This document shows, in pieces, positions 3,607 to 50,722 of a stretch of 64,000 nucleotides of DNA. Under the pieces are notes generated by a model, which saw only the letters and a program-made list of their open reading frames with translations, was not told the DNA's origin and searched no databases. The stretch's first letter is position 1. Each line of letters opens with the position of its first letter. Position numbers and translations under genes: made by a program. Source of the DNA: an uncultured Gammaproteobacteria bacterium (GTDB lineage: Bacteria; Patescibacteriota; Patescibacteriia; UBA9934; CAZDDW01); contig CAZDDW010000001.1 of assembly GCA_964504365.1 (NCBI GenBank), positions 132,293 to 196,292 of the forward strand, given 5' to 3'.

Positions 3607-3607
3607 T

Positions 3608-6023: not shown

Positions 6024-6103
6024 AAGTTGTCTAGTATACTGGTTATTTAGTTATCTAGTTTTCGCAACCAGACAACCAGACAACTAGTTAACTAGAAAAC
6101 AAT
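6024..6103. repeat. palindromic element with aaccagacaaccagacaac units after pheT
   Basis: ttgtctagtatactggttatttagttatctagtt ... aaccagacaaccagacaactagttaactag. Confidence 0.55.
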
Positions 6104-9997: not shown

Positions 9998-10067
9998 ACT
10001 CCCCCTCCTTTCAAAGGAGGGGTTAGGGGTGGTTCTGATTACAAAGTAGTTTCGATACAATTATACC

Positions 10068-10115
10068 CAGAACCCCCCTTAAGTCCCCCCTTGGAGAAGG
10101 GGGGAGAGCAAAATT
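10068..10115. repeat. 48-bp conserved element CAGAACCCCCCTT-N5-CCCCCCTTGGAGAAGGGGGGAGAG-CAAAATT (copy 1 of 2)
   Basis: about 43/48 identical to 31715-31761; C6-loop-G6 hairpin; upstream GGGGTGGTTCTG (10026-10037) complementary to CAGAACCCCCC. Confidence 0.7.
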
Positions 10116-10143
10116 AACCCGTTTAAATAAGCTTATCGTCTCT

Positions 10144-10172
10144 TGACAGATAAGCTTATTTGTGTTAATCTG
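10144..10172 (+). promoter_or_regulatory. sigma70-like promoter TTGACA-17-TAATCT flanked by a perfect 13-bp inverted repeat (AAATAAGCTTATC/GATAAGCTTATTT, 10130-10167)
   Basis: consensus -35, 17-nt spacer, -10; AGGAGG RBS 10188-10193 and ATG 10200 downstream. Confidence 0.55.
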
Positions 10173-10199
10173 CCAAGTCTTATTCAAGGAGGAGAGACG

Positions 10200-10649
10200 A
10201 TGTCCGAAAGCATTCCCAGTCCGGATTCGGGAAAGTCGAAAAAGGGCATGTCCCCGCTTTGGCACCTGGTATACATTCTGTTGTTGATCGTCGGCTTTGT
10301 GGTTCTGATGAAAACCAGCTTTCAGTCAAGGGCCCGAGTCGTGGATCTACAGCAGCAGGTCGATGCCTACAAGGCGATGGTCAATACGACTACCGCCCGT
10401 GCCATGATTCTCGGATGCGATCCGTATCAGGCTCAGAACAAGGACCAGAACTGGTGCGGCGCCAAGCTGGCCAACGGTCGTGACAACAAGACCTTTCACA
10501 TCTACGATGAAGACGGGGTGACCCACTTCTTCCGGCTCTACCTGGTCGATCAGCCGATCACTGGTCAGCTGGAAGGAACGGAGGGTACCAAGATCATGCT
10601 CGGTCATGTCGAGATCCGGTACATCCAGTCTGACTACCCCGATTCCTAG
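10200..10649 (+). CDS. membrane-anchored hypothetical protein (NWCG-motif family, paralog 1); GC-rich
   Basis: start at ATG 10200 after AGGAGG; N-terminal TM; shares GCD...NWCG core with next gene. Confidence 0.5.
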   Translation: MSESIPSPDSGKSKKGMSPLWHLVYILLLIVGFVVLMKTSFQSRARVVDLQQQVDAYKAMVNTTTARAMILGCDPYQAQNKDQNWCGAKLANGRDNKTFHIYDEDGVTHFFRLYLVDQPITGQLEGTEGTKIMLGHVEIRYIQSDYPDS

Positions 10650-10672
10650 CCGGAACGCTCGGCTGGTCGTTG

Positions 10673-11273: not shown

Positions 11274-12656
11274 ATGACGCCAACAGCTAAAAAATCGACG
11301 TCAAAAAAGAAGCCTGCTGCTAAACAGCCACCAAAGAGGAAAACTCCGGCTAAGAAAAAAGCACCAGCCAAAAAGGTTGCTCCGAAAAAGAAGCCTGCGC
11401 CAAAGAAAAAAACACAGGCTGCAAAGGATGCAGAGATTCTTGAGGTATTGGAGGAGATTTATGAAGAGCCGGAAGAGGAACCAAAGAACAAAAAAACCAA
11501 AAAACTAAAGAACAAGGCACCGGTTTCACCATCAATGAAGATGTATCGCAGGATTGCTATTGGGTTTATCGCTGTGACTTTGTTTTTGTTAGCCACGGTA
11601 ATTATTTTGTCGACCATTCGGGCCACGGTTACTGTTTATTCGTCGGTCACAACAATGAACACAGAATTTATTGCAGATGTGGTTGCTGAAACACAAATGG
11701 AAGGTGAGATTCCAGGGCGAGTGATTGATACAACGATTGATGAGACACGAGAGTTTGTTGTTGATGAAGAAGGGGCAAGCGCGGTTCCAGCCAAAGCCGG
11801 AGGCTTGGTAACCATTTATAATACTTCGAATCGATCTCAACCATTGGTCGCTACAACACGACTTATGACCCCGGACGGGATTTTGTTTCGTATCGATTCT
11901 GGTGTGACTGTACCAGCCCAAGGAACTGTAGAAACTATGGCTCATGCTGATGAAGAGGGTGCGGCTGGTGAGATTGAACCAACAACGTTTAGTATTCCAG
12001 GTTTGAACTCGACTAGGCAAAAGGAAGTTTACGCCGAGAGCTTTGAGCCAATGACTGGTGGGGTTGAGTATCACAAGATTGTTACAGAAGAAGATTTGCA
12101 AGCGGCACGTAATCAGTTAAGTATGGATTTGTTGGCCGTGGCTGAGGAAGATTTACGAGCCGAGGTTCCAGACACTTATACAGGTGAAACATTTTTTGAA
12201 GAGGTCATTGGTGAAGTGGTTAGTGTTAGCGCTGGAGATGAGGCTGATAGTTATAGTATTTCAATGAGTGTGCATGTGATCGGAGTATTTTATGACCAAG
12301 CTCCGTTGTTAACTATTGCTGAAGCTAAATTATACGAAGGTTTGGAAAAGGGTTATCAGTTGTTCATGGTTGATCGAGAGGGTATGGCGGTTGAGGTTGA
12401 ACGGTATGATTTGGAGCATGAGATTGCCAATGTGCGCGTCGTTCTTGAAGGGCTCACAATGGTTTCGCCAACTAACGCGTTGCTTGATAAAACAAATTTG
12501 GTTGGATTACCAGCACAAGATTTAAAGGACATGCTGATCGATGCTGGAATAGCGGTTGGGGTTGATGTTGAGTTTTTCCCATTCTGGATACGAAAAGTAC
12601 CTAAGCTGCGTGATCACGTTGAGATCAAGATTCAAACACCTGATCCAGCACTATAG
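11274..12656 (+). CDS. membrane protein with histone-H1-like Lys/Ala/Pro-rich N-terminal tail and large extracytoplasmic domain
   Basis: KKPAAKQPPKRK... repeats, single TM at about aa 95-115; AAGGAGG RBS; TATTAT -10 upstream. Confidence 0.55.
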   Translation: MTPTAKKSTSKKKPAAKQPPKRKTPAKKKAPAKKVAPKKKPAPKKKTQAAKDAEILEVLEEIYEEPEEEPKNKKTKKLKNKAPVSPSMKMYRRIAIGFIAVTLFLLATVIILSTIRATVTVYSSVTTMNTEFIADVVAETQMEGEIPGRVIDTTIDETREFVVDEEGASAVPAKAGGLVTIYNTSNRSQPLVATTRLMTPDGILFRIDSGVTVPAQGTVETMAHADEEGAAGEIEPTTFSIPGLNSTRQKEVYAESFEPMTGGVEYHKIVTEEDLQAARNQLSMDLLAVAEEDLRAEVPDTYTGETFFEEVIGEVVSVSAGDEADSYSISMSVHVIGVFYDQAPLLTIAEAKLYEGLEKGYQLFMVDREGMAVEVERYDLEHEIANVRVVLEGLTMVSPTNALLDKTNLVGLPAQDLKDMLIDAGIAVGVDVEFFPFWIRKVPKLRDHVEIKIQTPDPAL

Positions 12657-17153: not shown

Positions 17154-18122
17154 ATGAAACCAAAAGTAATTGTCATTCTTGGTCCGACTGCGTCGGGCAA
17201 GACTTCCTTGAGTATCAAACTTGCTCAAGAGTTTTCTGGTGAAGTGATCAGTGTTGATTCACGACAGATTTATCGGGACATGAACATCGGAACCGCAAAG
17301 GAGCCCCAAGACCAGACAACCAGACAACCAGACAACCAGACAGCTGGCGAGTATCTGATCCAAGGCATCCCACATCACGGAATCGATATCCGGAATCCAA
17401 ATGAAGAGATGTCTGCAGCTGAGTTCAAGGAGTATGCAGAACAGAAAATCAAGGAAATTGTGGATCGTGGGAAAGTGCCAATTTTGGCTGGTGGTACAGG
17501 ATTTTGGATCCAGGCAATCATAGATAACCTTAAAATTCCGGCTGTTGCTCCTGATCCGACCCTGCGTCAAGTGCTTGATGGCAAGAGTACAGAGCAGTTA
17601 TTTGAGATGTATAAAGAAAAAGACCCTCAAGGAGCCAAGACGATTGATAAGGACAATCGGTTGCGCTTGATACGAGCCGTAGAGGTTTGTATCAAGTCTG
17701 GTCAGCCATTTTCTGAACAGCAGCAAAAAGGTGAACCAAAGTATGATGTATTGCAGATTGGGATTGATGTAGATCGCAAAGAGTTGTACAACAGAATTGA
17801 TCAACGCGTAGGTCAGATGATCGAGCAGGGTCTTGTTGAAGAGGTAAAACAGATTCGAGAAAAGTATGGTTGTGTCTCACTAGCTCTGACCGGAATCGGC
17901 TACCGTCAGATTTGCGAGTATCTGGACCAGGTTCAGGAACCCTCCTTCGCCAAGGCTTCGGAGGGTGACCTTCTCGCGCAAGCCGTGGAGAAGGTCAAAA
18001 AAGACACACGACATTATGCCAAGCGTCAGTTGAGTTGGTTTCGCCGTGATAAACGGATCAAGTGGGTCAAGGGGTATGAGGAAGCAGAGGATTTGGTTAG
18101 GCGATTCTTGAATGACCAATGA
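17154..18122 (+). CDS. miaA: tRNA dimethylallyltransferase
   Basis: GPTASGKT P-loop; contains in-frame (ACCAGACA)x4 repeat expansion at 17318-17345 encoding QTTRQPDNQT; last codons and stop lie in a palindromic repeat element. Confidence 0.85.
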   Translation: MKPKVIVILGPTASGKTSLSIKLAQEFSGEVISVDSRQIYRDMNIGTAKEPQDQTTRQPDNQTAGEYLIQGIPHHGIDIRNPNEEMSAAEFKEYAEQKIKEIVDRGKVPILAGGTGFWIQAIIDNLKIPAVAPDPTLRQVLDGKSTEQLFEMYKEKDPQGAKTIDKDNRLRLIRAVEVCIKSGQPFSEQQQKGEPKYDVLQIGIDVDRKELYNRIDQRVGQMIEQGLVEEVKQIREKYGCVSLALTGIGYRQICEYLDQVQEPSFAKASEGDLLAQAVEKVKKDTRHYAKRQLSWFRRDKRIKWVKGYEEAEDLVRRFLNDQ

Positions 18123-30448: not shown

Positions 30449-30916
30449 CTACACGCCAGTGAGCGTGGCACGGATGCGATAGAGCATGGCGATGAAGGTG
30501 TTTGCTCGCAAAGTGGTTGTTGGCGATTCGGGCCGACCAGTGTTGTGGGTCAAGGTCATGCCACTGGTTTCACGCAAGGCTTGGCCAGACGCTTCATGCT
30601 GAGTGAACTTGGCTGTTAGTGCACGTTCGACTAGGTCGAAGTGTCCTATGGAGCCGAGCTCGATCTCTTGACCTAGCCACCAGAGCCTGCCTTCTCGTAC
30701 GACTTGCTCGTGGACCTCTCCACTACCAGCTCGCTTTGCTTCGATGCCGACCAGTCCGCAGATGCGACGCTGTTCGTCTGGATCCCGGCGCTTCAGCGCT
30801 TGGATGAAACCTTCTGCCGAAGCACAGGTCATACCATCGATCACGAACTCACTGGCTGCGAGGTTCGAGAGTTGGTTGCCCGGCCAGGGCGCGGTGCTGA
30901 ATACGTTGATCGTCAT
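30449..30916 (-). CDS. NADAR-family (YbiA/DUF1768-like) protein; GC-rich insert
   Basis: QLSNLAASEFVIDGMTCASAEGFIQALK matches the NADAR core (SNF...DG...S.EH.FQA.K); start at M19 (30916) removes the overlap with the next gene. Confidence 0.5.
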   Translation of the reverse strand: MTINVFSTAPWPGNQLSNLAASEFVIDGMTCASAEGFIQALKRRDPDEQRRICGLVGIEAKRAGSGEVHEQVVREGRLWWLGQEIELGSIGHFDLVERALTAKFTQHEASGQALRETSGMTLTHNTGRPESPTTTLRANTFIAMLYRIRATLTGV

Positions 30917-30938
30917 CGACTCGATACTCCGTTTCGAC

Positions 30939-31367
30939 TCAGTGGTCGCGTGCGATCTGGACGACCGCATCGGTTAGCGGGTTGTCTTGTTCACTTAAGG
31001 TATGAGGGAAGTAGCGGTCAATAATCGTACGAATCTGCCATGAGAACTCTCTGGCCATTCTCTCACTCGGGGCAACAATGTGCACCAATGCATCCGGTAA
31101 CTGTCCGGTCAGCCAGGTGAACCATTGGTCGCCGCCTGCAGCTGCGCCGCGGCCAAATGCACTGCTTTTTGGATAACCATCTCGACGAAGGATGATTACG
31201 TCGTACGGTGGTTCTGTGATCGGTTTTTGGACCATTACCACCGCGATCTTGGATCCTTCGGGCATGCGTTGAAGCAGTTGCTGAACCATTCCGTCGCCGT
31301 TCAGTCCGAGCTTGCTCATGTGCTGCAAGCCGACCCTCCATCCCACGATGAAGATAATGCGGTTCAT
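30939..31367 (-). CDS. hypothetical protein; GC-rich insert
   Basis: ORF co-directional and nearly abutting the NADAR gene. Confidence 0.35.
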   Translation of the reverse strand: MNRIIFIVGWRVGLQHMSKLGLNGDGMVQQLLQRMPEGSKIAVVMVQKPITEPPYDVIILRRDGYPKSSAFGRGAAAGGDQWFTWLTGQLPDALVHIVAPSERMAREFSWQIRTIIDRYFPHTLSEQDNPLTDAVVQIARDH

Positions 31368-39169: not shown

Positions 39170-39182
39170 TAAAAAGAAAGCG

Positions 39183-39210
39183 GACCATCCTGGCGGATGG
39201 TCCTTTTTTG
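39183..39210. terminator. bidirectional intrinsic terminator bounding the cassette array
   Basis: ggaccatcc-tggc-ggatggtcc hairpin with A-run before and T6 after. Confidence 0.65.
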
Positions 39211-39224
39211 ATCCCGAGTTACGG

Positions 39225-39770
39225 TTAGGGCAAGAGCTTGGACAGCTCGTTGATGATGCCCGCGTCGTGGTCCGGGTGAAGGGAAGGTTCTCGGTGGCAG
39301 GAGCCGTGGCAGGGGACCAGCTTGACCGAGTGTTCCTGGTGGTGCGGCGAGTTGGGGTCGGCCCAGTGGCTGAAGTCGGTGCGGATGATCAGGTGCTGGT
39401 CGCCAAGGCAATAGTCGATACCGCTGCCGGAGCGCTTGGCGTAGTAACGATCAAAGCGAGCGCCGACGATCGGCTGACCACTGTCGATTAGTTCCTGAAC
39501 TCCATCGCCGAGGGTGATCTGGCTGTGCAGGGTGCGTTTGCCGTCCTGAAGGGTCTTGCTTCGCCAGCGCTTGATCATCTTGGCCAGCTCGATCGCTTTC
39601 ATGCGCTGCTGCACCTGGCAGGAACCGTCACAGGGGCCATGCACATCTTCCAGCCCGGTTTCGCAGTTGTAGGTTACGTGAATCAGGCCATTGACGCACC
39701 AGTACTGGTCATCGATTCCATCGACCGAGTCGGCGTCATAAACCACAACGTGAAGGCGAGGGGAAGTCAT
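39225..39770 (-). CDS. array gene A: Cys/His-rich hypothetical protein
   Basis: ORF track 39225-39830; start ATG 39770 after GGAG, 33 nt downstream of repeat R1; GC-rich. Confidence 0.45.
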   Translation of the reverse strand: MTSPRLHVVVYDADSVDGIDDQYWCVNGLIHVTYNCETGLEDVHGPCDGSCQVQQRMKAIELAKMIKRWRSKTLQDGKRTLHSQITLGDGVQELIDSGQPIVGARFDRYYAKRSGSGIDYCLGDQHLIIRTDFSHWADPNSPHHQEHSVKLVPCHGSCHREPSLHPDHDAGIINELSKLLP

Positions 39771-39803
39771 AAGACATCTCCGTTGATTGTTTGAAAGTAC
39801 GTT

Positions 39804-39843
39804 CCCATCACAGAACACGATCGTGGTCATGTGCTTTGATTGG
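39804..39843. repeat. array palindromic repeat R1 (cccatcacagaacacgat-cgtg-gtcatgtgctttgattgg)
   Basis: imperfect inverted repeat; matches consensus shared by seven copies. Confidence 0.8.
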
Positions 39844-39877
39844 AGCTCGATTTGTAGGCATCGAGCAGGCCTCCTTT

Positions 39878-40177
39878 CTAGGGAAGTAGATGGTTAACAT
39901 CAATGGCATGGCAAATGACGACCTGGTCTCCCGTAACCAGTACGCCGAGTTCGCTATCCACAATTTCCTTGGCTCCGTGCTCCTTGTGTTTGCAACGAAT
40001 GGCCACGCGCACTCGATGCGTTTTTCCGGTCAGATTCAGCTGAGCGTAGACAGTACAGCCGTGTTGGCATTCTGGTTGGATTCGGTGGTCAAGGGTGTCG
40101 AGATGGTGCATGATCAGGTCATCAGCGTCTCCCGTGACCTTCCAGTTGCCATAGTTCGGATAAAAACTCTCGTACAT
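39878..40177 (-). CDS. array gene B: hypothetical protein
   Basis: ORF track 39878-40219 (its first ATG lies inside R2); likely start M15 at 40177 after GGGGA RBS. Confidence 0.4.
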   Translation of the reverse strand: MYESFYPNYGNWKVTGDADDLIMHHLDTLDHRIQPECQHGCTVYAQLNLTGKTHRVRVAIRCKHKEHGAKEIVDSELGVLVTGDQVVICHAIDVNHLLP

Positions 40178-40211
40178 TGTGTCCCCTAAGAATTTAGTGT
40201 TGAAGGATCGA

Positions 40212-40252
40212 TCCATCACAGAACACGATCATGATCATGTGCTCTGATGGGG
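40212..40252. repeat. array palindromic repeat R2
   Basis: tccatcacagaacacgat-catg-atcatgtgctctgatgggg. Confidence 0.8.
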
Positions 40253-40269
40253 TGCCCAAGAAGATTGGG

Positions 40270-40815
40270 CTAGTGAGTGGCCTGCCAAGGCCGTTGATTG
40301 CGGCCTGTGATCCGTTGCAGGACCAAGGTCAGCGAAGGTGGGGCGTGGGGAAGCAGGGCCTCCCGGATCCGGTGGCGACGCTGGTATCTGGCGTCACGGC
40401 GAAGGTGGGGGAAGAGCGGAGCTAGTTCCGGGTCGCTCAGGTTATCGAACACGTGCAGGTACAACAGGCGGAAGTTTTCCTCGGCCGAAGCCGCCTGCTT
40501 GTCGGGCATCTGCTCTCGTGCTCTGGCTGCCGTTGCCCAGAACTGGGATCGGGCTCGCTCGAAGGTTTCCTGCCAGCGCTGTCGTTCGCGTTCCTGTGCT
40601 TGTCGTATGCGCTCACGCTTCTCGGCGTTGGCCAGGGCCACGGCGTGTCGCTGCTGGTCAATGGACCAGTTCATGGCCAGTCGGTGGGCGTAGGCGGTGG
40701 GGTTGTCCGGTTGGGCCTGTTCGACCCGGCCGACCAGCTCGTCGAGCTTGTCGGGGCTGCAGGTTTGACCGTAACGGTCGATCACGTCGGAGATTACAGT
40801 ACGGATGTCAGTCAT
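40270..40815 (-). CDS. array gene C: Arg/Glu-rich coiled-coil hypothetical protein
   Basis: ORF track 40270-40851; start ATG 40815, 28 nt downstream of R3. Confidence 0.45.
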   Translation of the reverse strand: MTDIRTVISDVIDRYGQTCSPDKLDELVGRVEQAQPDNPTAYAHRLAMNWSIDQQRHAVALANAEKRERIRQAQERERQRWQETFERARSQFWATAARAREQMPDKQAASAEENFRLLYLHVFDNLSDPELAPLFPHLRRDARYQRRHRIREALLPHAPPSLTLVLQRITGRNQRPWQATH

Positions 40816-40843
40816 CTGGGGTTCCTTGCGGATAGGGACGATT

Positions 40844-40883
40844 CCCATCACAGAACACGATTTTCATCATGTGCTCTGAAGGG
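40844..40883. repeat. array palindromic repeat R3
   Basis: cccatcacagaacacgat-tttc-atcatgtgctctgaaggg. Confidence 0.8.
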
Positions 40884-41237
40884 TTGCCCGACCAGAACGG
40901 CCGGGCAAGAGGCGCAACTCACTGACAGTGGTATCAGTCAGAGGATGCTGTGACGGTGCGAAAACAACTGCTTGTCCCACCCCATGACAGATCAAGGGGC
41001 CTATTCCTGACCTGCCATGAGTATGACATGGCAACCTAACACCCAAGAGTGCCACTTCGTTAGGTGCTGGTTGACAGCTGCAAACCACCAATCGCTGGGT
41101 TTTTCAGTTCTCCTGCGTATACCAACGCACATGCCTTTAATGGATAAACCCAGAAACCAGAAGTACTACCGGGGAAACATGTAACCCCATGTTATTAGGA
41201 CACTGCCTTGATCCTTTGTTTTCTGTTTTGTGTTATT

Positions 41238-41277
41238 CCCATCACAGAACACGATTTAGATCATGGGCTATGATGGG
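41238..41277. repeat. array palindromic repeat R4 (followed by an empty slot, no convincing ORF to R3)
   Basis: cccatcacagaacacgat-ttag-atcatgggctatgatggg. Confidence 0.8.
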
Positions 41278-41585
41278 TGCCCGAGGATTCGGGCAAGAAG
41301 TATAGGAGGGGGAGACACGATGGAAACGTGTAGCTTTTGTGAGTGCTAAGGGCTAAATCTTCAGCGCTAATGGTTGAGGGCTAAGTCTTTGAATGCTGAA
41401 CCCTGAGGCCATAGCCTTCGCTGTCGATGTCAAGCTCTTAGAGCATCGGCGTAAGCCGAGCACTCCTGGCGTCCTTTCGGACGATCAGTTTGTTACTACA
41501 TATCTCGACCGTGCTCCCCCCACCAAATTGGACTGAACCGTTAGGGCTGGGGGCCCTTGGGAACAGTGTCAATCTAGTGTTTTTC

Positions 41586-42103
41586 CTAATTCGTCGGGAG
41601 GGGGGTGGTGTGGTTGGTGGACTCGAGAAGGTCGTTCAGGGCCTCGATCCGTTCTTGCAGTCGCTCGATACGCTGGACGCGCTCGGGTTCGTGCAGAGCG
41701 GCTTCGTAGGTTACCATCTCGTACTCGGTCTCGTAGGTCCGCGGGTTGGTGCCGGTCTGCTCGCGGCGATCGCCGTAGGTCAGGTTCAGACGCTGCCAGA
41801 AAGCGATCTCGCCAGCCAGCTCGCTCTTCAGGCGAACGGCCAGGGTCAGGCTGATCTGGCGGTCCTCGAACTCGATCGTCGTCGTCGCGTTGGCCTCGGC
41901 GATGCCGGCTCGCAGGCTCATCAGCTCCTCGACCAGCTCCTGGCGCTGGGCGACCAGATCGTCGAAGACGAACTCTGGTTCCAGGTCCTGGCGCCAGCTG
42001 ACGTGGGCCTCGGACGCTGGGTGATGGTACTGATGCGTCCCTCGATTCGGCTGGCGTTGCGCAAGGCCTGGGCGATGGTCAGGGTGGTCTGGGTGGCGGT
42101 CAT
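41586..42103 (-). pseudogene. array gene D: hypothetical protein interrupted by a frameshift near 41921
   Basis: two ORFs (42103-41921, 60 aa; 41921-41586, 111 aa) abut in different frames; first starts 35 nt downstream of R5 after AGGGAG RBS. Confidence 0.4.
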
Positions 42104-42138
42104 GTCAATGTCTCCCTATTGGGTGTTGAAGGTTCGTT

Positions 42139-42178
42139 CCCATCACAGAACACGATTTAGATCATGGGCTATGATGGG
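42139..42178. repeat. array palindromic repeat R5
   Basis: identical to R4 across the element. Confidence 0.8.
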
Positions 42179-42228
42179 TGGCTCTGAGCCGCAGAGCGTG
42201 CCAGCAAGGACTGCTGGACTTTGGTGGG

Positions 42229-42489
42229 CTAAAGGTGGAAGAGGGTTTTCCACTCGCCGTCACACCGTTTCTCGACGTAGTGTGAGGTCTGGACGTGACT
42301 CCCGGTCACCGGGTCCTCGTGGTAGTCGTGAGGAGGAGTGTAGAATCCCGATGTCTCGAAGCGGTCCCTGCCTGGCGTTTTGTCGAATTTTCCGCGCCAC
42401 AGCACTTGGCAAGTCCCTTCTGTACAACCGGAGCCATCTCCTTGGTAAAGGTGGTAGGTGAAAGTTCGGCGGACAATGCGGAACAACAT
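42229..42489 (-). CDS. array gene E: hypothetical protein
   Basis: ORF track 42229-42531; start ATG 42489 after GGAG, 27 nt downstream of R6. Confidence 0.4.
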   Translation of the reverse strand: MLFRIVRRTFTYHLYQGDGSGCTEGTCQVLWRGKFDKTPGRDRFETSGFYTPPHDYHEDPVTGSHVQTSHYVEKRCDGEWKTLFHL

Positions 42490-42516
42490 AGGAGACTCCG
42501 GTGGATAGGGATGATT

Positions 42517-42555
42517 CCCATCACAGAACACGATTTAGATCATGGGCTATGATGG
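42517..42555. repeat. array palindromic repeat R6
   Basis: cccatcacagaacacgat-ttag-atcatgggctatgatgga. Confidence 0.8.
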
Positions 42556-42864
42556 ACACCCGGCACGTATTGCCAGGTGGAAAGAAGTTGGGGAAGACAC
42601 GCTATCAACCCGGAATGGTGATGATCCAGGGTACCCTGGATTTACGAACGCCGACCAAGGCGCCATCACCTTACGTCACTCTGGTGCACCTCTTCCGTCG
42701 AAGAGAGTGCTTATACCCATCAGAGCATGGGGTCCCATCAGCGTGAGCTGCGGGAGAGCAAGAACTCTTTAGACGCTTCGAGTGCTTGCCGGGGTCCGTG
42801 TGTTTGGTCGATGGTGGTCACCTATCTGGCCGACACACCCACACCACCCCTGGATATTTAATGT

Positions 42865-42904
42865 CCCATCACAGAACATGATTTAGATCATGTGCTCTGA
42901 TGGG
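42865..42904. repeat. array palindromic repeat R7 (downstream slot about 310 bp without ORF; contains relic ctgatggg fragments)
   Basis: cccatcacagaacatgat-ttag-atcatgtgctctgatgggg. Confidence 0.8.
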
Positions 42905-42944
42905 GTGCCCAGATAACTGGGCAGAAGTGGAGCGGTGGGTAGGC

Positions 42945-43196
42945 CTAGGCGGCCTGTGGGAGCTCCTGGGGCGGGGTCTCGCGGCGCTCATCGGGCTGAC
43001 CCGGGCGGCGCAAGATACGGACGTAGGGCTGTGCGGGGCTGGGCTGACGCGACTCGGCACGCAGCTGTTGAGGCGAGGTGGTGAACCAGGCTCGAAGTCG
43101 GTGTACGTTTCCGTAGCAGTTGGTGTTGAAGTTGCGCATTTGCTGTCCCCTTTGTGTGTTGAACGAACATTCAGTTTTACCCTGAACGCTGATCAC
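42945..43196 (-). CDS. array-proximal low-complexity ORF (GTG start; alternative ATG 43139)
   Basis: only ORF between R7 and the control region; no repeat upstream; weak. Confidence 0.2.
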   Translation of the reverse strand: MISVQGKTECSFNTQRGQQMRNFNTNCYGNVHRLRAWFTTSPQQLRAESRQPSPAQPYVRILRRPGQPDERRETPPQELPQAA

Positions 43197-43478
43197 CTCC
43201 TGGCCTTCTCTCCAAAGGTCAGTGCTGGTGAGGTGAATCAGTCTTCAAGGTAAAATAAGTTGTAATGTCTTGATTTGCCTTGGCCAGATCGTCGCTGTGT
43301 GTTCGTAAGCTCTGCTCGAGCTTATTACCTCCTGGAATCAGATTGAACCGACTGGCGATAGATCTAGTGGTTCTTATCAAGCATGGAGCTAAGAACCGCT
43401 ACGCATTTAGGCAAAATAAAACGATGCTAGTGAGTATGTGGCTTGCTGGAGCCACAGATCGACCAGCATCGAACAAAG

Positions 43479-43507
43479 CATACTAGCATGGATTTAAAAA
43501 CTTGTCA
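43479..43507 (-). promoter_or_regulatory. promoter TTGACA-17-TAGTAT pointing into the array, followed about 15-65 nt downstream by a hairpin plus U-run (attenuator or short sRNA)
   Basis: hexamers and spacing; minus-strand hairpin gatgctggtcgatctgtggctcc...gccacatactcactagcatc then GTTTTATTTTG at about 43400-43465. Confidence 0.45.
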
Positions 43508-43612
43508 AGCCCTGGTGTACAAACCAGGTTTTTTTGTAGATTATTTCGCTAAATTTAGGTAAGTCAGATAAAAAAATAGGTCCAGGCATGCCGGACAAGG
43601 TCTTGCTTTGGG

Positions 43613-43641
43613 CTTGACAAAATAGCCGTTTTATGCTATAC
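43613..43641 (+). promoter_or_regulatory. promoter TTGACA-17-TATACT (plus), divergent from the array promoter
   Basis: perfect -35, 17-nt spacer, TATACT -10. Confidence 0.55.
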
Positions 43642-43649
43642 TTGCTTGT

Positions 43650-44133
43650 TCCTGTGAAAACCGTTGGATTTTGTTCCGGGATCTATCTCGGCTTAATCTG
43701 CTTTTTTCGACAGGCTACCGTGAGGAGGATATATGAAGATGGGTGATTGATGACCGAGTTTCAGGGTTACAGCTTCACAAGATGGGCTGCGGCTAGATTC
43801 CACAATGGAGAACCAAGGAAAACGATCCTTTTACTGCTACGGGTAGCCCCCGAGTTGACAATGGGACAAGGCTGAGGTTTCCAAGCCGATCTGCCGGAAG
43901 ACGCCGGCGATCAGATCGCGCCAGTTAAGGGCGCAAACGATGACGAACAAAGGAGGGTGCAACGTGCACTCCTAAGTCGCGATAGGCGACATCTTCGACA
44001 CCGAAACCAGCCAAGCTCCGAATGTCAACAGTCCGCCAACGAAAGGAGGCGAACATGGGTGGCTAGCCCTCTTGGACCCGGCTCGGACGCGCACTTCAGC
44101 GCGTCCGGGTCGGGACCAGATACTCAATAAGAA
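43650..44133 (+). ncRNA. candidate about 500-nt noncoding or small-ORF transcript of unknown function
   Basis: bounded by strong promoter and terminator; no ORF >=60 aa; GAGGAGG RBS with 5-codon uORF (MKMGD) overlapping the ATG of a 41-codon ORF; 19-bp-stem hairpin 44066-44109. Confidence 0.3.
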
Positions 44134-44163
44134 AACCTGCCTAATGGCAGGTCTATTTGTTTT
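44134..44163. terminator. bidirectional intrinsic terminator
   Basis: acctgcc-taat-ggcaggt hairpin with T-run after and A-run before. Confidence 0.6.
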
Positions 44164-44168
44164 CAAAA

Positions 44169-44909
44169 TTATTTGTTGTATTTATTCCAAAGCCCTTTTA
44201 GCAAAGCTCGTTGTGTGGCAGCAAAGTCCTTATTCTCAATAACAATCATGTTACCACCCTTTTCAAAACTGACCATAACCACTGTGTCGTCGTATACAGC
44301 AACGTCACCTTTGAATTCGCCAATGTCTTTTTTATCGACCTTGCAATAACTGACCATCTCTCGATTCCTTATTTTATCGCCTGAATGCATGAAGTATACT
44401 CTAACATTCTTTAGTTCCATTCCTTGTCTGGCTTGGTCAACTGTTTCTTTTGTAAAGTGTTTATAGAGTTCATCAACATTTGACAGCTCGTACATTTCCT
44501 TAGGTTTTTTTTTACATACATCATCAAAGAAAGCATAAAACATTTCTGTGCCTTGGAAAAAGCGGACCTTTGGCCGTTCGCCACCCGCCAGTAGTATCAG
44601 GTCATCTAGCTTTTTTTCAATTAAAGATACTTTATTTGAGAATTCAAGTTGCTGTCCTTGCAAGTGTTGAAGAAGTCGATCCGGCTCTTCAGCAACATAG
44701 AGTGTTTTTTTACCACGTTGGTAAGTAGAAAAAAGCTCTTTGCTTTTTAGGTTTTCGATTGCATCATAAGCTGCGGTCCGTGATAACTTGGCTGCTTTGG
44801 CAATGTCTTGAACACTGGCTGCGCCGAGCTTGAGTCCGGCTAGATAAGTTTTGGCTTCAGACTCGGTCATGCCGAGCGCGTGAAGGATTGAAGTAAAGTC
44901 AGTTGGCAT
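44169..44909 (-). CDS. TrmB-family transcriptional regulator
   Basis: N-terminal winged HTH LGMTESEAKTYLAGLKLGAASVQDIAKAAKLSRTAAYDAIENL typical of TrmB; low GC. Confidence 0.6.
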   Translation of the reverse strand: MPTDFTSILHALGMTESEAKTYLAGLKLGAASVQDIAKAAKLSRTAAYDAIENLKSKELFSTYQRGKKTLYVAEEPDRLLQHLQGQQLEFSNKVSLIEKKLDDLILLAGGERPKVRFFQGTEMFYAFFDDVCKKKPKEMYELSNVDELYKHFTKETVDQARQGMELKNVRVYFMHSGDKIRNREMVSYCKVDKKDIGEFKGDVAVYDDTVVMVSFEKGGNMIVIENKDFAATQRALLKGLWNKYNK

Positions 44910-44997
44910 ATATTATTATTTCGATACTTATTTTACCTCATTCTTGACAATTCTGCCATATTCAGGCAAACTACGCCTCGTTAATAAGATTATATTT

Positions 44998-45723
44998 ATG
45001 GATACCATTACATTAAACGCTGAGCCACGTGAGGCTAAGGGTCGAGATACAAATGCTCTACGAGCAGATTCGATTGTGCCTGCTGTGGTTTACGGACCAA
45101 ACTCAGAATCAAGAAGTGTTCAGGTTATTCGAAATGAAGTAATTGCTGCTTTTCGACAGGCTGGACGTAGTTCTTTGGTTGATCTGGTGATTGGAGGAGA
45201 CAAGCCAGTTAAGGTGATTATTCAGGACGTACAACGCGATCCATTGAAAGATGACCTTACTCATATTGATTTTTATGAGGTTGATCTGACCAAGGAAGTT
45301 TCGGCTACTGTAAAGCTCGAGTTCATTGGTACTTCTGCTGCAGTTAAGGAACTGGGTGGAACTTTGGTCAAGGCTCGTGATAGAATAGAAGTGAAAGGTT
45401 TGCCAGACAGGCTGGTTGCTTCTCTCGAGGTTGATATTTCAAAACTAAATACCTTTGACGATGTCTTCCATGTTAAAGATATTGTTTTACCAGAAGGATT
45501 GAGTTTGGATATGGATGAGGAACGCGCGGTTGCCTTAGTTAACCCACCACGAACTCAGGAAGAAATGGAGAAACTGGATGAAGCAATTGAAGAAGAGGTC
45601 ACTGGCGCTGACGAAGATGAAGAGGGTGAAGCCAAGGAAGGTGAGGAAGGCGAGGCTCCTGCTGATGGTGAAGCCAAGGAAGAGGGTGACAAGCCTGCAG
45701 ACGGAGAGTCAAAGGACAAATAA
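44998..45723 (+). CDS. rplY: 50S ribosomal protein L25/general stress protein Ctc with acidic C-terminal tail
   Basis: L25 beta-barrel then CTC domain; start taken at M19 (MDTITLN). Confidence 0.7.
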   Translation: MDTITLNAEPREAKGRDTNALRADSIVPAVVYGPNSESRSVQVIRNEVIAAFRQAGRSSLVDLVIGGDKPVKVIIQDVQRDPLKDDLTHIDFYEVDLTKEVSATVKLEFIGTSAAVKELGGTLVKARDRIEVKGLPDRLVASLEVDISKLNTFDDVFHVKDIVLPEGLSLDMDEERAVALVNPPRTQEEMEKLDEAIEEEVTGADEDEEGEAKEGEEGEAPADGEAKEEGDKPADGESKDK

Positions 45724-45729
45724 ACTTCA

Positions 45730-46806
45730 ATGAAAATTCCAAAGCCGACACAATTGCAGTTGGTAATCATAGGAGCGGTGATGTTAGCAGTCGCCGCTGC
45801 TTTGATTTTAGTATTAATGCGCGAGCAGGTTTTGCCGTACTTTTCAGATCAGGCTGCTCAGTACGTAGAGCCACAGAACGGGACTGAAGTTTTGTTTCGA
45901 CATCCAATAACCGGGGAGCCGGCTTTTGAGGAGGTTGAGCGTCCAAGGTTATATGGGGTGATGGTTGAGAATATGGTTGAAGCGTGGCCATTGTCTGGAA
46001 TTGATCAAGCCTTATTGGTCATTGAGGCGCCAGTTGAAGCTGCAATCCCACGGCTGTTGGCTTTTTATTCTGAAGAGCAAGAAGTTGAGAAGATTGGACC
46101 CGTGCGTTCTGCGCGGCCGTATTACCTAGACTGGAGTGAAGAGCTTGAGGCTATGTATGTTCATGTTGGTGGTAGTCCGGCGGCATTGTCACAGATTGAA
46201 CACGATGACATCTTTGATTTAAATGAGTTTTATCGAGGTTGGTATTTTTGGCGTGGCTCTGATCGTTCAGCCCCTCACAATGTTTACACTTCGACCAAGA
46301 ATTTGGGTGAGGCTTATGAAGGTGAGAGTGCTTGGCGTACAGTTGGTCCGGCTGATTATGGCTTGTGGCAGTTTAAGAATGATGTTTCTGAGGACGAGCG
46401 GCCTGAGTATCAATTTGTGAGCATGAATTTTTCACCGTATTTTGGAGATTTGTATGAAGCGGGCTGGGAGTATGATCCAGAAACGAATGAGTATATTCGC
46501 TATCAAAGTGGATATGAGATGTCTATGTTAGAAGGTGGGCAGATTCGAGCCAATAATATTGCTATCTTAGAAACCGATATTGTTGTTTTGGATGAGATTG
46601 GCCGTCGGCAGATCACTACAGTTGGAGAAGGTCCTGCTATGGTTATTCAAGATGGACAGGTGGTTGTTGGAACCTGGGCCAAGTCTTCTGTGGATGAGCG
46701 ATTACGTTTCTATAATAACGAAACCGGCGCAGAAGTGCAGTTCAACGCCGGGGTAACTTGGATTGAAGTTTTGTCTAGTTTGGAAACCGTAGAGGTGGTC
46801 AATTAG
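45730..46806 (+). CDS. membrane-anchored DUF3048-like (YerB-like) protein
   Basis: N-terminal TM; GVMVEN...RSARPYY family-like motifs. Confidence 0.45.
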   Translation: MKIPKPTQLQLVIIGAVMLAVAAALILVLMREQVLPYFSDQAAQYVEPQNGTEVLFRHPITGEPAFEEVERPRLYGVMVENMVEAWPLSGIDQALLVIEAPVEAAIPRLLAFYSEEQEVEKIGPVRSARPYYLDWSEELEAMYVHVGGSPAALSQIEHDDIFDLNEFYRGWYFWRGSDRSAPHNVYTSTKNLGEAYEGESAWRTVGPADYGLWQFKNDVSEDERPEYQFVSMNFSPYFGDLYEAGWEYDPETNEYIRYQSGYEMSMLEGGQIRANNIAILETDIVVLDEIGRRQITTVGEGPAMVIQDGQVVVGTWAKSSVDERLRFYNNETGAEVQFNAGVTWIEVLSSLETVEVVN

Positions 46807-50594: not shown

Positions 50595-50635
50595 ACGGCA
50601 GGAGTGTACCAGGAGAAAAGAAATGTGTCAAGCGA

Positions 50636-50722
50636 GAGTTATCTGGTTTTCTGGTTATCTTGTTGTCTAGTTTCAGGAACCAAATAACCAGAGAACTAGA
50701 CAACCAGACAACTTTTGATATC
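50636..50722. repeat. palindromic element built of ctggtt/gttgtctagtt and aaccagacaac units (same family as 6024-6103)
   Basis: tctggttttctggttatcttgttgtctagtt ... aaccaaataaccagagaactagacaaccagacaac. Confidence 0.6.

What the first reader, a model, noticed from the sequence alone, without database searches (positions are those of the whole stretch)
43260..43650. Control region at the head of the array: face-to-face consensus promoters, an attenuator-like hairpin and a plus-strand terminator
A minus-strand TTGACA-17-TAGTAT promoter (43479-43507) points into the array. About 15-65 nt downstream (43465-43400 on minus) there is a hairpin followed by GTTTTATTTTG. That would give either an about 60-nt sRNA or an attenuator gating read-through into the cassettes. 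On the plus strand a cctggt-gtacaa-accagg-T7 terminator (43508-43535) and a perfect TTGACA-17-TATACT promoter (43613-43641) face away. This is the kind of divergent regulatory hub seen at the integrase/Pc end of integrons or at a phage or island immunity region, but here there is no protein-coding gene on either side within 500 bp.
Basis: seen in the sequence. Interest (0 to 1): 0.6.

Follow-up and report, generated by a model that had tools for sequence, protein, structure and literature searches.

The report
Conserved two-way promoter hub, hairpin-cassette array
The two back-to-back promoters are real and conserved in related uncultured (CPR, Uhrbacteria-like) bacteria: one drives an unclassified ~510-nt non-coding RNA, the other a structured leader with an early terminator followed by a hairpin-punctuated cassette array, an integron-like layout that has no integrase.

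Summary
Window 43480-43642 holds two divergent TTGACA-17-TGnTAnnnT promoters. The same pair occurs in five related loci from four more lineages, whose neighbouring TrmB-like protein is only 48-67% identical. The -35-to--35 spacing is 106 bp in four lineages. The 163-bp core is as conserved as the flanking genes.

The plus promoter does not face nothing. It drives a ~510-nt RNA ("RNA A", ~43648-44160) with no conserved ORF and no Rfam match. RNA A ends at a terminator shared with a convergent TrmBL2-like regulator gene.

The minus promoter drives a structured leader: a 5' intrinsic terminator (43471-43413, structure kept in three lineages, lost in others), a second hairpin, and a covarying 86-nt junction hairpin (43257-43172). 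Eight cassettes follow, separated by seven copies of a strongly covarying ~42-nt hairpin.

The two terminator-like hairpins between the promoters are not conserved.

No recombinase lies in the window, and the hairpins do not match attC sites. So this is integron-like in layout, not an integron. A cassette-sized indel sits exactly at a hairpin boundary between close relatives.

Transcription, regulation by the TrmBL2-like protein and the gating role of the terminator are inferred, not shown.

The parts
43614..43642 (+). Promoter of RNA A: TTGACA-17-TGcTATACT (extended -10). The predicted start is near 43648.
   Evidence: 11/12, with TG. The same element sits at the equivalent position in L093, L094, L095, L096 and L097. 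A related one is in L098, read from its sequence.
43648..44165 (+). RNA A, a ~510-nt candidate non-coding RNA. It has a conserved 5' hairpin region and two ribosome-binding-site-plus-mini-ORF motifs (43723-43750, MKMGD*; 44044-44066, MGG*). It also has a variable GC-rich centre, a long GC hairpin (44074-44118) and a terminator (44135-44152 plus U-run).
   Evidence: Folds far better than shuffles (z = -5.5). No Rfam family and no tRNA or tmRNA. No ORF is conserved between lineages, but both mini-ORF motifs are conserved in position. The ends are conserved and the 3' hairpin covaries. Terminator.
43509..43613 (.). Spacer between the two -35 hexamers, holding three conserved blocks. These are GCCCTGGTGTACAAA (43509-43523, abutting the array -35), TTCGCTAAATTTAGGTAA (43545-43562; a perfect 20-bp palindrome TTTACCTAAATTTAGGTAAA in L093) and a TGTCCGG block (~43590-43598). 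It also holds two outward-facing terminator-like hairpins (43511-43535 on +, 43596-43571 on -).
   Evidence: Alignment A2. Both motifs are unique in the 64-kb window. The hairpins come, but they are not conserved in L095 and only weakly in L093.
43480..43508 (-). Array promoter: TTGACA-17-TGcTAGTAT (extended -10). The predicted start is near 43474.
   Evidence: 10/12, with TG. Relatives carry TTGACAAAcTTTTnATnTTGTGnTATAGT at the same place. No other strong minus-strand promoter lies within the array.
43413..43474 (-). 5'-proximal intrinsic terminator or attenuator: conserved 5' end GUUCGAUGCUGG, hairpin 43471-43422 and U-tract 43421-43413. Termination here would give a ~60-nt RNA.
   Evidence: window dG -26.5 (z -4.6), L095 -27.3 (z -5.2), L093 -23.8 (z -5.3), each followed by a U-run and each with a different stem sequence. 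It is deleted in L096, absent in L098 and weak in L097.
43369..43397 (-). Leader hairpin 2: GGUUCUUA...UAAGAACC with the conserved loop CCAUGCUUG.
   Evidence: Fold. L095 has GAUCCUUA...UAAGGAUC at the same place, which is a compensatory change. It is absent in L093 and L096.
43172..43257 (-). Junction hairpin at the boundary between the leader and cassette 1 (UUUUAyyCUGAA-ACUGAyy-CACCUC ... GAGGUG-rUCAG-UUCAGrrUAAAA).
   Evidence: Present in all five lineages that carry the leader, with dG -38 to -57 and z -5.7 to -9.7 (L093, with its 166-nt insertion: dG -135, z -18). Of 23 pairs, 100% of cells are paired and 7 pairs carry compensatory changes; 0/500 shuffles reach this.
39204..43171 (-). 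The array: eight cassettes of 310-860 bp at 54-59% GC. Six carry minus-strand ORFs with ribosome-binding sites, one of them frameshifted; two are non-coding. They are separated by seven units, each a variable hairpin followed by a conserved ~42-nt hairpin (CH).
   Evidence: Repeats. CH copies lie at 42907-42861, 42559-42513, 42181-42135, 41280-41234, 40886-40840, 40254-40208 and 39846-39801, and nowhere else in the window. CH covariation: 16 of 18 pairs compensatory, 0/500. GC. ORFs. The ORFs have no Pfam family.
39182..39203 (.). Bidirectional terminator that closes the array and the convergent 110-aa gene.
   Evidence: 9-bp stem with T-runs on both strands.
44169..44909 (-). TrmBL2-like winged-helix DNA-binding protein gene, convergent with RNA A. 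It is the candidate regulator of the hub.
   Evidence: PF01978. Full-length profile match to TrmBL2 (5bpd, E 2e-5). AF2 model with pLDDT 85.6 and best Foldseek hits to TrmBL2 (E 6.5e-13). It stays next to RNA A and the array in two different left-flank contexts, L25 and IleRS.

Best explanation
Window 43480-43642 is the bidirectional promoter core of a conserved chromosomal module found in a group of Uhrbacteria-like CPR bacteria.

Shown by sequence and comparison:
- Two consensus-grade extended -10 promoters fire in opposite directions.
- The rightward one is followed by a ~510-nt region with no conserved ORF, conserved and covarying ends, and a terminator shared with the convergent TrmBL2-like gene. 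This is RNA A.
- The leftward one is followed by a ~300-nt structured leader and then a 4-kb array. The array has eight cassettes punctuated by seven copies of a covarying hairpin and ends at a bidirectional terminator.
- This is the only strong promoter for the array.

Inferred:
1. Both promoters are active. They are probably co-regulated through the three conserved blocks in the 106-bp spacer, most likely by the linked TrmBL2-like DNA-binding protein.
2. The 5'-proximal hairpin plus U-tract is a partial intrinsic terminator. It releases a ~60-nt RNA and sets how much transcription enters the array. Nothing lies upstream of it to form an antiterminator, so any gating would have to come from a trans factor or from ribosomes on the near-leaderless AUG at +6.
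3. The cassette hairpins and the junction hairpin act on the sense strand, most simply as RNA processing or stabilising elements of one long transcript.

The function of RNA A is unknown. Its two conserved SD + AUG-GGU mini-ORF motifs and a CCUCCUU stretch suggest ribosome loading or SD/anti-SD pairing.
For: Promoters:
- Searches show matches well above shuffles.
- The identical architecture is seen in L093/L094, L095, L096 and L097, with related promoters in L098, read from its sequence.
- The core is as conserved as the neighbouring coding sequences.

RNA A:
- z = -5.5.
- No conserved ORF, but conserved mini-ORF motifs.
- Conserved blocks and a covarying 3' hairpin.
- Terminator.

Leader:
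- Terminator structure kept with different stem sequences in three lineages.
- Junction hairpin 100% paired with 7 compensatory pairs.

Array:
- CH hairpin has 16 of 18 pairs compensatory.
- G-T/T-G pairs outnumber A-C/C-A 30 to 9 on the transcribed strand.
- CH occurs only inside the array.
- No internal strong promoter, and a closing terminator.

Regulator:
- The TrmBL2-like gene is linked to the module in two genomic contexts.
- It is a full-length TrmBL2 homologue.
- The spacer motifs are unique in the window.
Against: - There are no expression data of any kind. Start sites, 3' ends and read-through are all predictions.
- The leader terminator is missing in L096 (clean deletion) and L098 and is weak in L097. 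It is therefore dispensable, and no alternative antiterminator fold exists.
- The two terminator-like hairpins between the promoters are not conserved.
- The link to the TrmBL2-like protein rests on synteny alone. The palindrome is perfect only in L093.
- RNAduplex found no RNA A-to-leader pairing better than shuffles.
- The wobble-pair count includes near-identical repeat copies, so it overstates the number of independent events.
- A sense-strand fold is also compatible with top-strand single-stranded DNA.
- The large structured RNA that follows the leader in every relative is absent from this window.
Confidence: 0.6

Rival explanations
1. The region is the platform of a DNA-level cassette-capture system analogous to an integron. 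The minus promoter plays the role of Pc and the junction hairpin acts like attI. The conserved hairpins are folded single-strand recombination sites, and a recombinase encoded elsewhere (or an RNA-A-dependent activity) inserts and excises cassettes.
For: - The layout matches: a divergent hub, one promoter, and same-orientation promoterless cassettes each ending in a structured repeat.
- The repeats are near-identical within one array but diverge between lineages with compensatory changes, as in sedentary chromosomal integrons.
- L093 differs from its close relative L096 by one whole ~400-bp cassette, inserted exactly at a hairpin boundary.
- Homologous cassettes sit at different positions in different arrays: window cassette 2 versus L093 14353-14660, cassette 4 versus L097, and cassette 8 versus L098 and P0019.
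- The cassette proteins are orphans.
- The island is 54-59% GC in a ~44% GC genome.
Against: - No recombinase of any family lies in the 64-kb window or in the relatives' flanks.
- The hairpins lack the attC R''/R' boxes and are shorter than any attC.
- The wobble bias is on the sense strand, whereas integrons use the bottom strand.
- The array is identical in five metagenome samples of the same population.
- A large structured RNA is always the first cassette in the relatives, which looks like a fixed gene rather than a mobile cassette.
Confidence: 0.2
2. The minus promoter mainly makes a ~60-nt terminated small RNA that acts in trans. The array would then be transcribed weakly or from elsewhere.
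For: A strong promoter is followed within 60 nt by a stable hairpin plus U-tract in three lineages.
Against: - The stem and loop sequences are not conserved; only the first ~12 nt and the U-run are, so there is no conserved seed.
- L096 and L098 lack the element yet keep the promoter and the array.
- No other strong promoter serves the array.
- The conserved, covarying leader structures downstream imply read-through transcripts under selection.
Confidence: 0.1
3. This is an immunity or regulatory region of a degraded prophage, satellite or integrated element. The TrmBL2-like protein would be the repressor and the divergent promoters a lysis/lysogeny-type switch.
For: - Divergent strong promoters lie next to a winged-helix DNA-binding protein gene.
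- Some cassette ORFs hit phage protein families: phrog_1491 at 7.6e-6, and the L093 113-aa ORF to phrog_30542 at 4e-26.
- GC content is foreign to the host genome.
Against: - The locus lies at the same place between housekeeping genes in several lineages at ~65-70% nucleotide identity.
- There is no integrase, no att duplication and no structural or replication genes.
- There is no DNA match in 50,697 phage or 72,556 plasmid records, and no viral-contig match to its motifs.
Confidence: 0.07
4. The promoter-like and terminator-like matches are chance features of an unconstrained intergenic stretch.
For: Simple consensus scans find some sites in shuffled sequence too (8 promoter-like sites found versus 4.7 expected).
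Against: - Both promoters are kept hexamer-for-hexamer, with the TG and the 17-bp spacer, in five related loci (four further lineages).
- The 106-bp spacing is kept in four lineages.
- The core is as conserved as the coding sequence.
Confidence: 0.02

Closest known systems
Integron platform (intI, Pc, attI, then cassettes ending in attC) and CALINs (attC clusters lacking an integrase)
   Same: A divergent control region sits at the head of the array. A single promoter reads into same-orientation, mostly promoterless short cassettes. Each cassette ends in an imperfect structured palindrome. The repeats are homogeneous within an array. Cassette genes are orphans, and cassette content differs between relatives.
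   Different: A ~510-nt non-coding RNA gene sits where intI would be. No tyrosine recombinase lies anywhere nearby. The repeats are ~42 nt and lack the RYYYAAC/GTTRRRY boxes. The wobble-pair bias points to the sense strand rather than the bottom strand. Cassettes include large and small structured RNAs. The leader carries a terminator and a long junction hairpin instead of an attI.
5'-leader intrinsic-terminator attenuators and processive-antitermination leaders (EAR RNA, LoaP-dependent leaders, HK022 put); comparison from general knowledge
   Same: A strong promoter is followed by a structured leader holding an intrinsic terminator, ahead of a long operon full of stable hairpins.
   Different: There is no upstream sequence able to form an antiterminator, no recognisable ligand-binding or T-box-like domain, no Rfam match, and no linked NusG paralogue. 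The terminator is dispensable in some lineages.
REP/BIME-type intercistronic palindromes that stabilise upstream mRNA
   Same: Imperfect palindromes between cistrons, folded in the transcript, lacking a U-tract and so not terminators.
   Different: They are confined to one locus: 7 copies, all within the array, in 64 kb. All lie in one orientation, and each is paired with a cassette-specific hairpin. No RAYT transposase is present.
CRISPR leader plus repeat-spacer array
   Same: A promoter-bearing leader precedes direct repeats of CRISPR-like length (36-42 nt) that are palindromic and covarying.
   Different: The 'spacers' are 310-860 bp and carry complete genes with ribosome-binding sites or structured RNAs. 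No cas genes lie in the window.
TrmB/TrmBL2 family regulators (archaeal sugar regulator TrmB; chromatin-like global repressor TrmBL2)
   Same: The linked 246-aa protein has the TrmB winged helix and matches TrmBL2 over its full length, by both sequence profile and predicted fold.
   Different: It is bacterial (CPR) and only 13-16% identical to TrmBL2. Its target and ligand are unknown, and its link to this hub is by synteny only.

Membership tests
Sigma-70 extended -10 promoter | -35 TTGACA, 17-bp spacer, TG at -15/-14, and a -10 TAnnnT | tested here: met
   (10/12 and 11/12, both with TG). (7 such sites in the window versus 0.8 in shuffles).
Sigma-70 extended -10 promoter | Conservation of both hexamers and the spacing in orthologous loci | tested here: met
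   (L093, L094, L095, L096, L097). (alignment). (identity equal to the coding flanks).
Sigma-70 extended -10 promoter | Mapped transcription start | not testable with these tools
   No transcriptome data are available.
Intrinsic terminator / attenuator | GC-rich hairpin immediately followed by a U-tract | tested here: met
   43471-43422 plus UUUUAUUUU, dG -26.5, z -4.6. The equivalent structure is in L095 and L093.
Intrinsic terminator / attenuator | Mutually exclusive antiterminator structure or sensor domain | tested here: not met
   Only ~3 nt precede the hairpin. No Rfam cis-regulatory family matches. There is no better-than-random pairing with RNA A.
Intrinsic terminator / attenuator | Retention across relatives | tested here: inconclusive
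   Present in 3 lineages with compensatory stems, weak in L097, deleted in L096 and absent in L098.
Integron | Adjacent intI tyrosine recombinase | tested here: not met
   No recombinase domain among the Pfam-annotated genes and ORFs of the window (most ORFs of at least 100 aa were covered) or in the relatives' flanks.
Integron | attC sites with R''/R' boxes (RYYYAAC ... GTTRRRY), 57-141 bp, recombined as the folded bottom strand (definition from general knowledge) | tested here: not met
   The repeat is CCCATCAGAGCACATGAT-nnnn-ATCGTGTTCTGTGATGGG, about 42 nt, with no R boxes. G-T pairs favour the sense strand 30 to 9.
Integron | Single upstream promoter, with cassettes that differ between relatives at repeat boundaries | tested here: met
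   (promoter). (L093 versus L096 cassette indel). (shared cassettes at different positions).
CRISPR array | Short spacers (about 26-72 bp) and cas genes | tested here: not met
   Repeat spacing is 348-901 bp, with ORFs between repeats. No cas domains were found.
Any described RNA family (Rfam 15) | Covariance-model match at or near the gathering score for RNA A, the leader or the hairpins | tested here: not met
   Searches gave only sub-threshold chance hits. ARAGORN found nothing.
TrmB/TrmBL2 family (linked protein) | TrmB winged-helix domain plus full-length TrmBL2-like architecture | tested here: met
   PF01978. PDB profile hit to 5bpd over residues 13-246, E 2e-5. Foldseek hit to 5bpd, E 6.5e-13.
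TrmB/TrmBL2 family (linked protein) | Binds the spacer motifs and controls the two promoters | not testable with these tools
   Only synteny in two genomic contexts supports this.

The most novel reading that the evidence does not exclude
The hub heads a previously undescribed cassette system of CPR bacteria that has no integrase and is built around RNA. Its fixed platform is the TrmBL2-like regulator, RNA A, the divergent promoters and the junction hairpin. Behind the platform, hairpin-delimited cassettes carrying small orphan proteins and large structured RNAs are gained, lost and shuffled at hairpin boundaries. The mechanism would not be IntI/attC recombination and might involve RNA A or the sense-strand hairpins themselves.
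Probability: 0.17. Interest if true: 0.88.

Novelty: new variant of a known kind. Interest (0 to 1): 0.62.

Why it matters
CPR/Patescibacteria have tiny genomes and very few characterised regulatory or non-coding elements.

This locus gives a well-defined, conserved promoter pair of near-consensus strength, which could be useful as a CPR expression signal. It also gives an unclassified ~510-nt RNA, a structured leader with an early terminator, and a covarying hairpin that delimits gene-sized and RNA-sized cassettes.

If the cassettes move at the DNA level, this would be a second, integrase-independent route to integron-like gene stockpiling. If the hairpins work in RNA, it is a new type of punctuated polycistron mixing structured RNAs and small proteins. 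Either way, the hub is the place to put probes and reporters.

Tried and rejected
- **Rfam.** Searches at gathering score and at E up to 10 over the window and relatives gave nothing credible. There is no tRNA or tmRNA.
- **Hammerhead-like CUGAUGAGG at the RNA A 5' end of relatives.** No GAAA or stem III follows, and the motif is absent from the window, so this was rejected by inspection.
- **RNA A as a protein gene.** No ORF is conserved, the indels are not in multiples of three, and the centre is unalignable.
- **RNA A pairing with the leader terminator as a trans antiterminator.** RNAduplex energies were no better than for shuffled leaders.
- **Collection scans with the repeat.** The genome collection gave 79 single chance hits and no array. 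The metagenome collection gave one chance hit in eukaryote-like DNA. Viral contigs gave none with three patterns.
- **Strain variants.** Ten contigs carrying the identical TrmB-like protein are all 99.8-100% identical across the array, so they show no population variation.
- **Xer/dif-like reading of the hairpin core.** Only about 6 of 11 positions match per arm, the central 4 nt vary between copies, and all sites are direct repeats, so this was not pursued (by eye, from my recollection of the dif consensus; not a tool result).
- **Dispersed REP element.** The covariance model finds copies only inside the array.
- **Defence-system models.** Only a CARF-associated small protein of unknown function turned up in an L093 cassette, plus generic HTH hits.
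- **Phage and plasmid BLAST of the whole island.** No match.
- **Literature searches** for CPR integrons, CPR structured RNAs or TrmB in CPR found no description of this locus.
Full report
**1. What is in the sequence**

The promoter and terminator scan of 41000-46000 ranks two sites far above the rest.
- Plus strand, 43614-43642: TTGACA-17-TATACT, 11 of 12 consensus positions, with the extended -10 TG.
- Minus strand, 43508-43480: TTGACA-17-TAGTAT, 10 of 12, also with TG.

Over the whole 64-kb window, sites scoring at least 10/12 with a TG number 7, against 0.8 (maximum 4) in composition-preserving shuffles. Several of the others lie directly upstream of genes. This is therefore the organism's real promoter type.

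The same scan confirms the plus-strand hairpin plus T7 at 43511-43535. It adds a mirror-image minus-strand site at 43596-43580 plus T7.

The leader hairpin pairs 43471-43422 and is followed by UUUUAUUUU. Its dG is -26.5 kcal/mol, z = -4.6, and 0 of 200 shuffles fold as well.

**2. Setting**

The window is ordinary chromosome of a ~44% GC CPR bacterium. It carries the DNA polymerase III alpha subunit, tRNA synthetases, GyrB, FtsW/RodA, ribosomal proteins and glycolysis genes. The closest named relatives of the neighbouring protein are Candidatus Uhrbacteria MAGs.

No recombinase, transposase, reverse transcriptase or Cas domain was found in the window.

Positions 39180-44165 form a 54-59% GC island. 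It lies between a 110-aa gene of the FtsW cluster and a 246-aa TrmB-family gene (44169-44909, minus strand).

The island holds seven copies of a ~42-nt imperfect palindrome. Read on the minus strand it is CCCATCAGAGCACATGAT-nnnn-ATCGTGTTCTGTGATGGG. Each copy is preceded by a cassette-specific GC hairpin and the sequence ACCC.

The repeats separate eight cassettes of 310-860 bp.
- Six have minus-strand ORFs with ribosome-binding sites; one of these is frameshifted.
- Two have no ORF.

The array ends at a bidirectional terminator at 39182-39203. It contains no other strong minus-strand promoter.

**3. Relatives**

DNA-pattern scans of the public collections gave only chance hits. Contigs carrying the identical TrmB-like protein are the same strain, 99.8-100% identical.

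Homologues of the TrmB-like protein gave contigs from other lineages.
- 66-67% identity: L093/L094, L095 and L096, plus one contig without DNA.
- 48% identity: L097.
- 37% identity: L098.

All have the same order: TrmB-like gene, shared terminator, ~480-650 nt without genes, divergent promoters, then an array of small same-strand ORFs and non-coding stretches.

The flank on the other side of the TrmB-like gene is L25/DUF3048 in one group and IleRS in L097 and L098. The TrmB-like gene therefore travels with the module rather than with its other neighbours.

**4. The hub is under constraint**

A regular-expression scan finds the promoter pair in every relative with DNA.
- Array side: TTGACAAAcTTTTnATnTTGTGnTATAGT.
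- RNA A side: TTGACAAAAnnnnCnAnnnATGCTATACT.

The distance between the two -35 starts is exactly 106 bp in the window, L093, L095 and L096, and 138 bp in L097. L098 has related TTGAC(A/G)-N17-TGATAG promoters, read from its sequence.

The 163-bp core is 64-73% identical between the window and its relatives. That equals the trmB-like coding sequence (70%) and L25 (65%).

Three spacer blocks are conserved.
- GCCCTGGTGTACAAA, abutting the array -35.
- TTCGCTAAATTTAGGTAA, which is a perfect 20-bp palindrome in L093.
- A TGTCCGG block.

The first two are unique in the window.

The plus-strand 'terminator' hairpin plus T7 is identical only in L096. It is weak in L093 and absent in L095. The minus-strand one is specific to the window. 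I read these as lineage-specific insulators at most. What is conserved there looks like a DNA motif.

**5. The plus promoter drives an RNA gene**

From ~43648 to the terminator at 44135-44152 there is no ORF conserved between lineages. The fold is far better than shuffles, with z = -5.5. No Rfam family matches.

The alignment shows several features.
- A conserved 5' region.
- A poorly alignable centre of variable length.
- A conserved 3' domain: AAGGAGG-N5-AUGGGUGGCUAG, then a long GC hairpin with compensatory changes, then the terminator.
- 13 of the 44 predicted pairs carry compensatory changes.

Two ribosome-binding-site-plus-mini-ORF motifs recur at equivalent positions in all five lineages: MKMGD/MGH/VGE/MGS, and MGG/MGG/MGD/MGG/MGGMG. 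L098 has a GGAGG-AUG-CAC-GGU-UAA version, read from its sequence.

Three relatives also carry CCUCCUU upstream, which RNAalifold pairs with the second AAGGAGG. What these motifs do is unknown.

**6. The minus promoter drives a structured leader**

The first ~12 nt (GUUCGAUGCUGG) are conserved. The terminator hairpin keeps its shape with different stem sequences.
- Window: dG -26.5, z -4.6.
- L095: dG -27.3, z -5.2.
- L093: dG -23.8, z -5.3.

Each is followed by a U-run. L096 has lost the hairpin by a clean deletion, L098 lacks it and L097 has only a weak version.

Only ~3 nt precede the hairpin, so no antiterminator can form in cis. RNA A shows no better-than-random pairing with the leader.

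An AUG at +6 opens a short, non-conserved ORF that runs through the hairpin. Ribosome-dependent read-through is conceivable but weakly supported.

A second hairpin (43397-43369) covaries with L095.

An 86-nt junction hairpin (43257-43172) is present in all five lineages that carry the leader. Its dG ranges from -38 to -57 and z from -5.7 to -9.7; L093, whose loop carries a 166-nt insertion, reaches dG -135 and z -18. In the 23-pair core every cell is paired and 7 pairs show compensatory changes, with 0/500 shuffles reaching this.

That alignment was assembled by hand from the folded arms, which favours the structure somewhat.

**7. The array hairpins**

Twenty copies from five genomes give 16 of 18 pairs with compensatory changes. 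Paired cells are 87% against 74.5% in shuffles, with 0/500 reaching the observed value.

On the transcribed strand, G-T/T-G pairs outnumber A-C/C-A by 30 to 9. The folded strand is therefore the sense strand, either as RNA or as top-strand DNA. This is the opposite of integron attC sites. Many copies are near-identical, so this count overstates the number of independent events.

A covariance model finds the hairpin only inside the arrays.

**8. Are the cassettes modular?**

L093 and L096 are close relatives (L25 91% identical at the DNA level). They share the first element and its variable hairpin. L093 then has one extra ~400-bp non-coding cassette, inserted exactly between that hairpin and the next conserved hairpin. 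After it, both continue with the same small ORF.

Homologous cassettes also occupy different positions in different arrays.
- Window cassette 2 matches L093 14353-14660.
- Cassette 4 matches L097.
- Cassette 8 matches a cassette in L098, and it matches P0019, where a further ORF follows it.

The cassette proteins have no Pfam family. Cassette 8 has a single homologue among 5.8 billion proteins.

This supports cassette-level turnover at hairpin boundaries but does not reveal the mechanism.

**9. The linked protein**

The 246-aa protein matches TrmBL2 over its full length by profile search (5bpd, E 2e-5). Its AlphaFold model (pLDDT 85.6) has TrmBL2 and then TrmB as best structural matches (E 6.5e-13). 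It is a DNA-binding regulator, not a nuclease or recombinase. Its role at the hub is inferred from linkage only.

**10. Verdict**

The control region is real, conserved and correctly placed at the head of the array. It consists of ordinary parts: two extended -10 promoters, conserved spacer motifs and an early intrinsic terminator.

It belongs to a module that fits no described family.
- Integron membership fails on the integrase, the attC boxes and the folded strand.
- CRISPR membership fails on spacer size and cas genes.
- Dispersed REP elements fail on distribution.
- No RNA family matches.

The best-supported reading is a co-regulated bidirectional hub. It produces RNA A on one side. On the other it produces a leader-gated, hairpin-punctuated polycistron. 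A DNA-level, integron-like cassette platform remains a live alternative.

Noticed in passing
L093 11866-12560; L096 ~3181-3940; L097 ~4055-5150 and ~5225-5930; L098 ~9950-10650; L095 from ~4806 to contig end: A large (~700-1100 nt) ORF-free, hairpin-rich 'RNA B' directly follows the leader in every relative, and L097 has two copies. Its shared motifs are GATAAACyCGGGTAACCGGGnTAAAC, TTCATAGyGyCAykC and GGTGAAAGAsTGGTTG. It has no Rfam match and is absent from this window.
   Followed up: partly
window 42860-42560 (minus) and L093 14353-14660: These are homologous non-coding cassettes sharing GACGTAAGGTGATrGyGCCwTGGyCGGCrTTCGTA and a GATyATCACCA block. They sit at different positions in the two arrays and may be a small structured RNA family.
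   Followed up: partly
window 42103-41586 (minus): Cassette 4 looks like one gene split by a frameshift into ORFs of 60 and 111 aa that overlap at ATGA. An intact-looking homologue starts at L097 6048. There is a weak PHROG 'tail fiber' hit.
   Followed up: partly
L093 11651-11816: A 166-nt near-perfect inverted repeat (71-nt arms, MITE-like) is inserted in the apical loop of the junction hairpin. It produces spurious plant-microRNA Rfam hits.
   Followed up: no
L093 15132-16568: An ISL3-family transposase element with 27-bp terminal inverted repeats is inserted at the distal end of that array.
   Followed up: no
L093 13933-14274; L098 12056-12415: Two cassette proteins resemble CRISPR- or CARF-associated small proteins. 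The L093 ORF hits PADLOC Unk_01, 'sometimes fused to CARF' (1.5e-23). The L098 ORF hits Pfam MJ1673 and weakly Csx20. No CRISPR-Cas genes are nearby.
   Followed up: no
L098 11656-11680 versus 9325-9350: The 24-nt motif GAACAGGACGGAGGTGGTA(C/T)ATG from the RNA A 3' domain occurs a second time on the same strand, inside the L098 array region. This hints at a second RNA A-like element there.
   Followed up: no
window 6047-6100, 17291-17352, 50667-50720 (also 11476-11521): Short tandem runs of an 8-nt unit (AACCAGAC) lie in several intergenic regions (family D2). The one at 50667-50720 lies between another divergent pair of extended -10 promoters at 50631 (minus) and 50697 (plus).
   Followed up: no
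window 42900-43253 (+): Public gene callers annotate a 117-aa plus-strand ORF here. It runs antisense across the junction hairpin and the first conserved hairpin, and is probably a spurious call in GC-rich sequence.
   Followed up: no
window 30449-30970 (minus): A 173-aa protein with a phage T4 gp30.3-like domain (PF08010, 3e-28) lies among nucleotide-metabolism genes (dCMP deaminase, ThyX).
   Followed up: no
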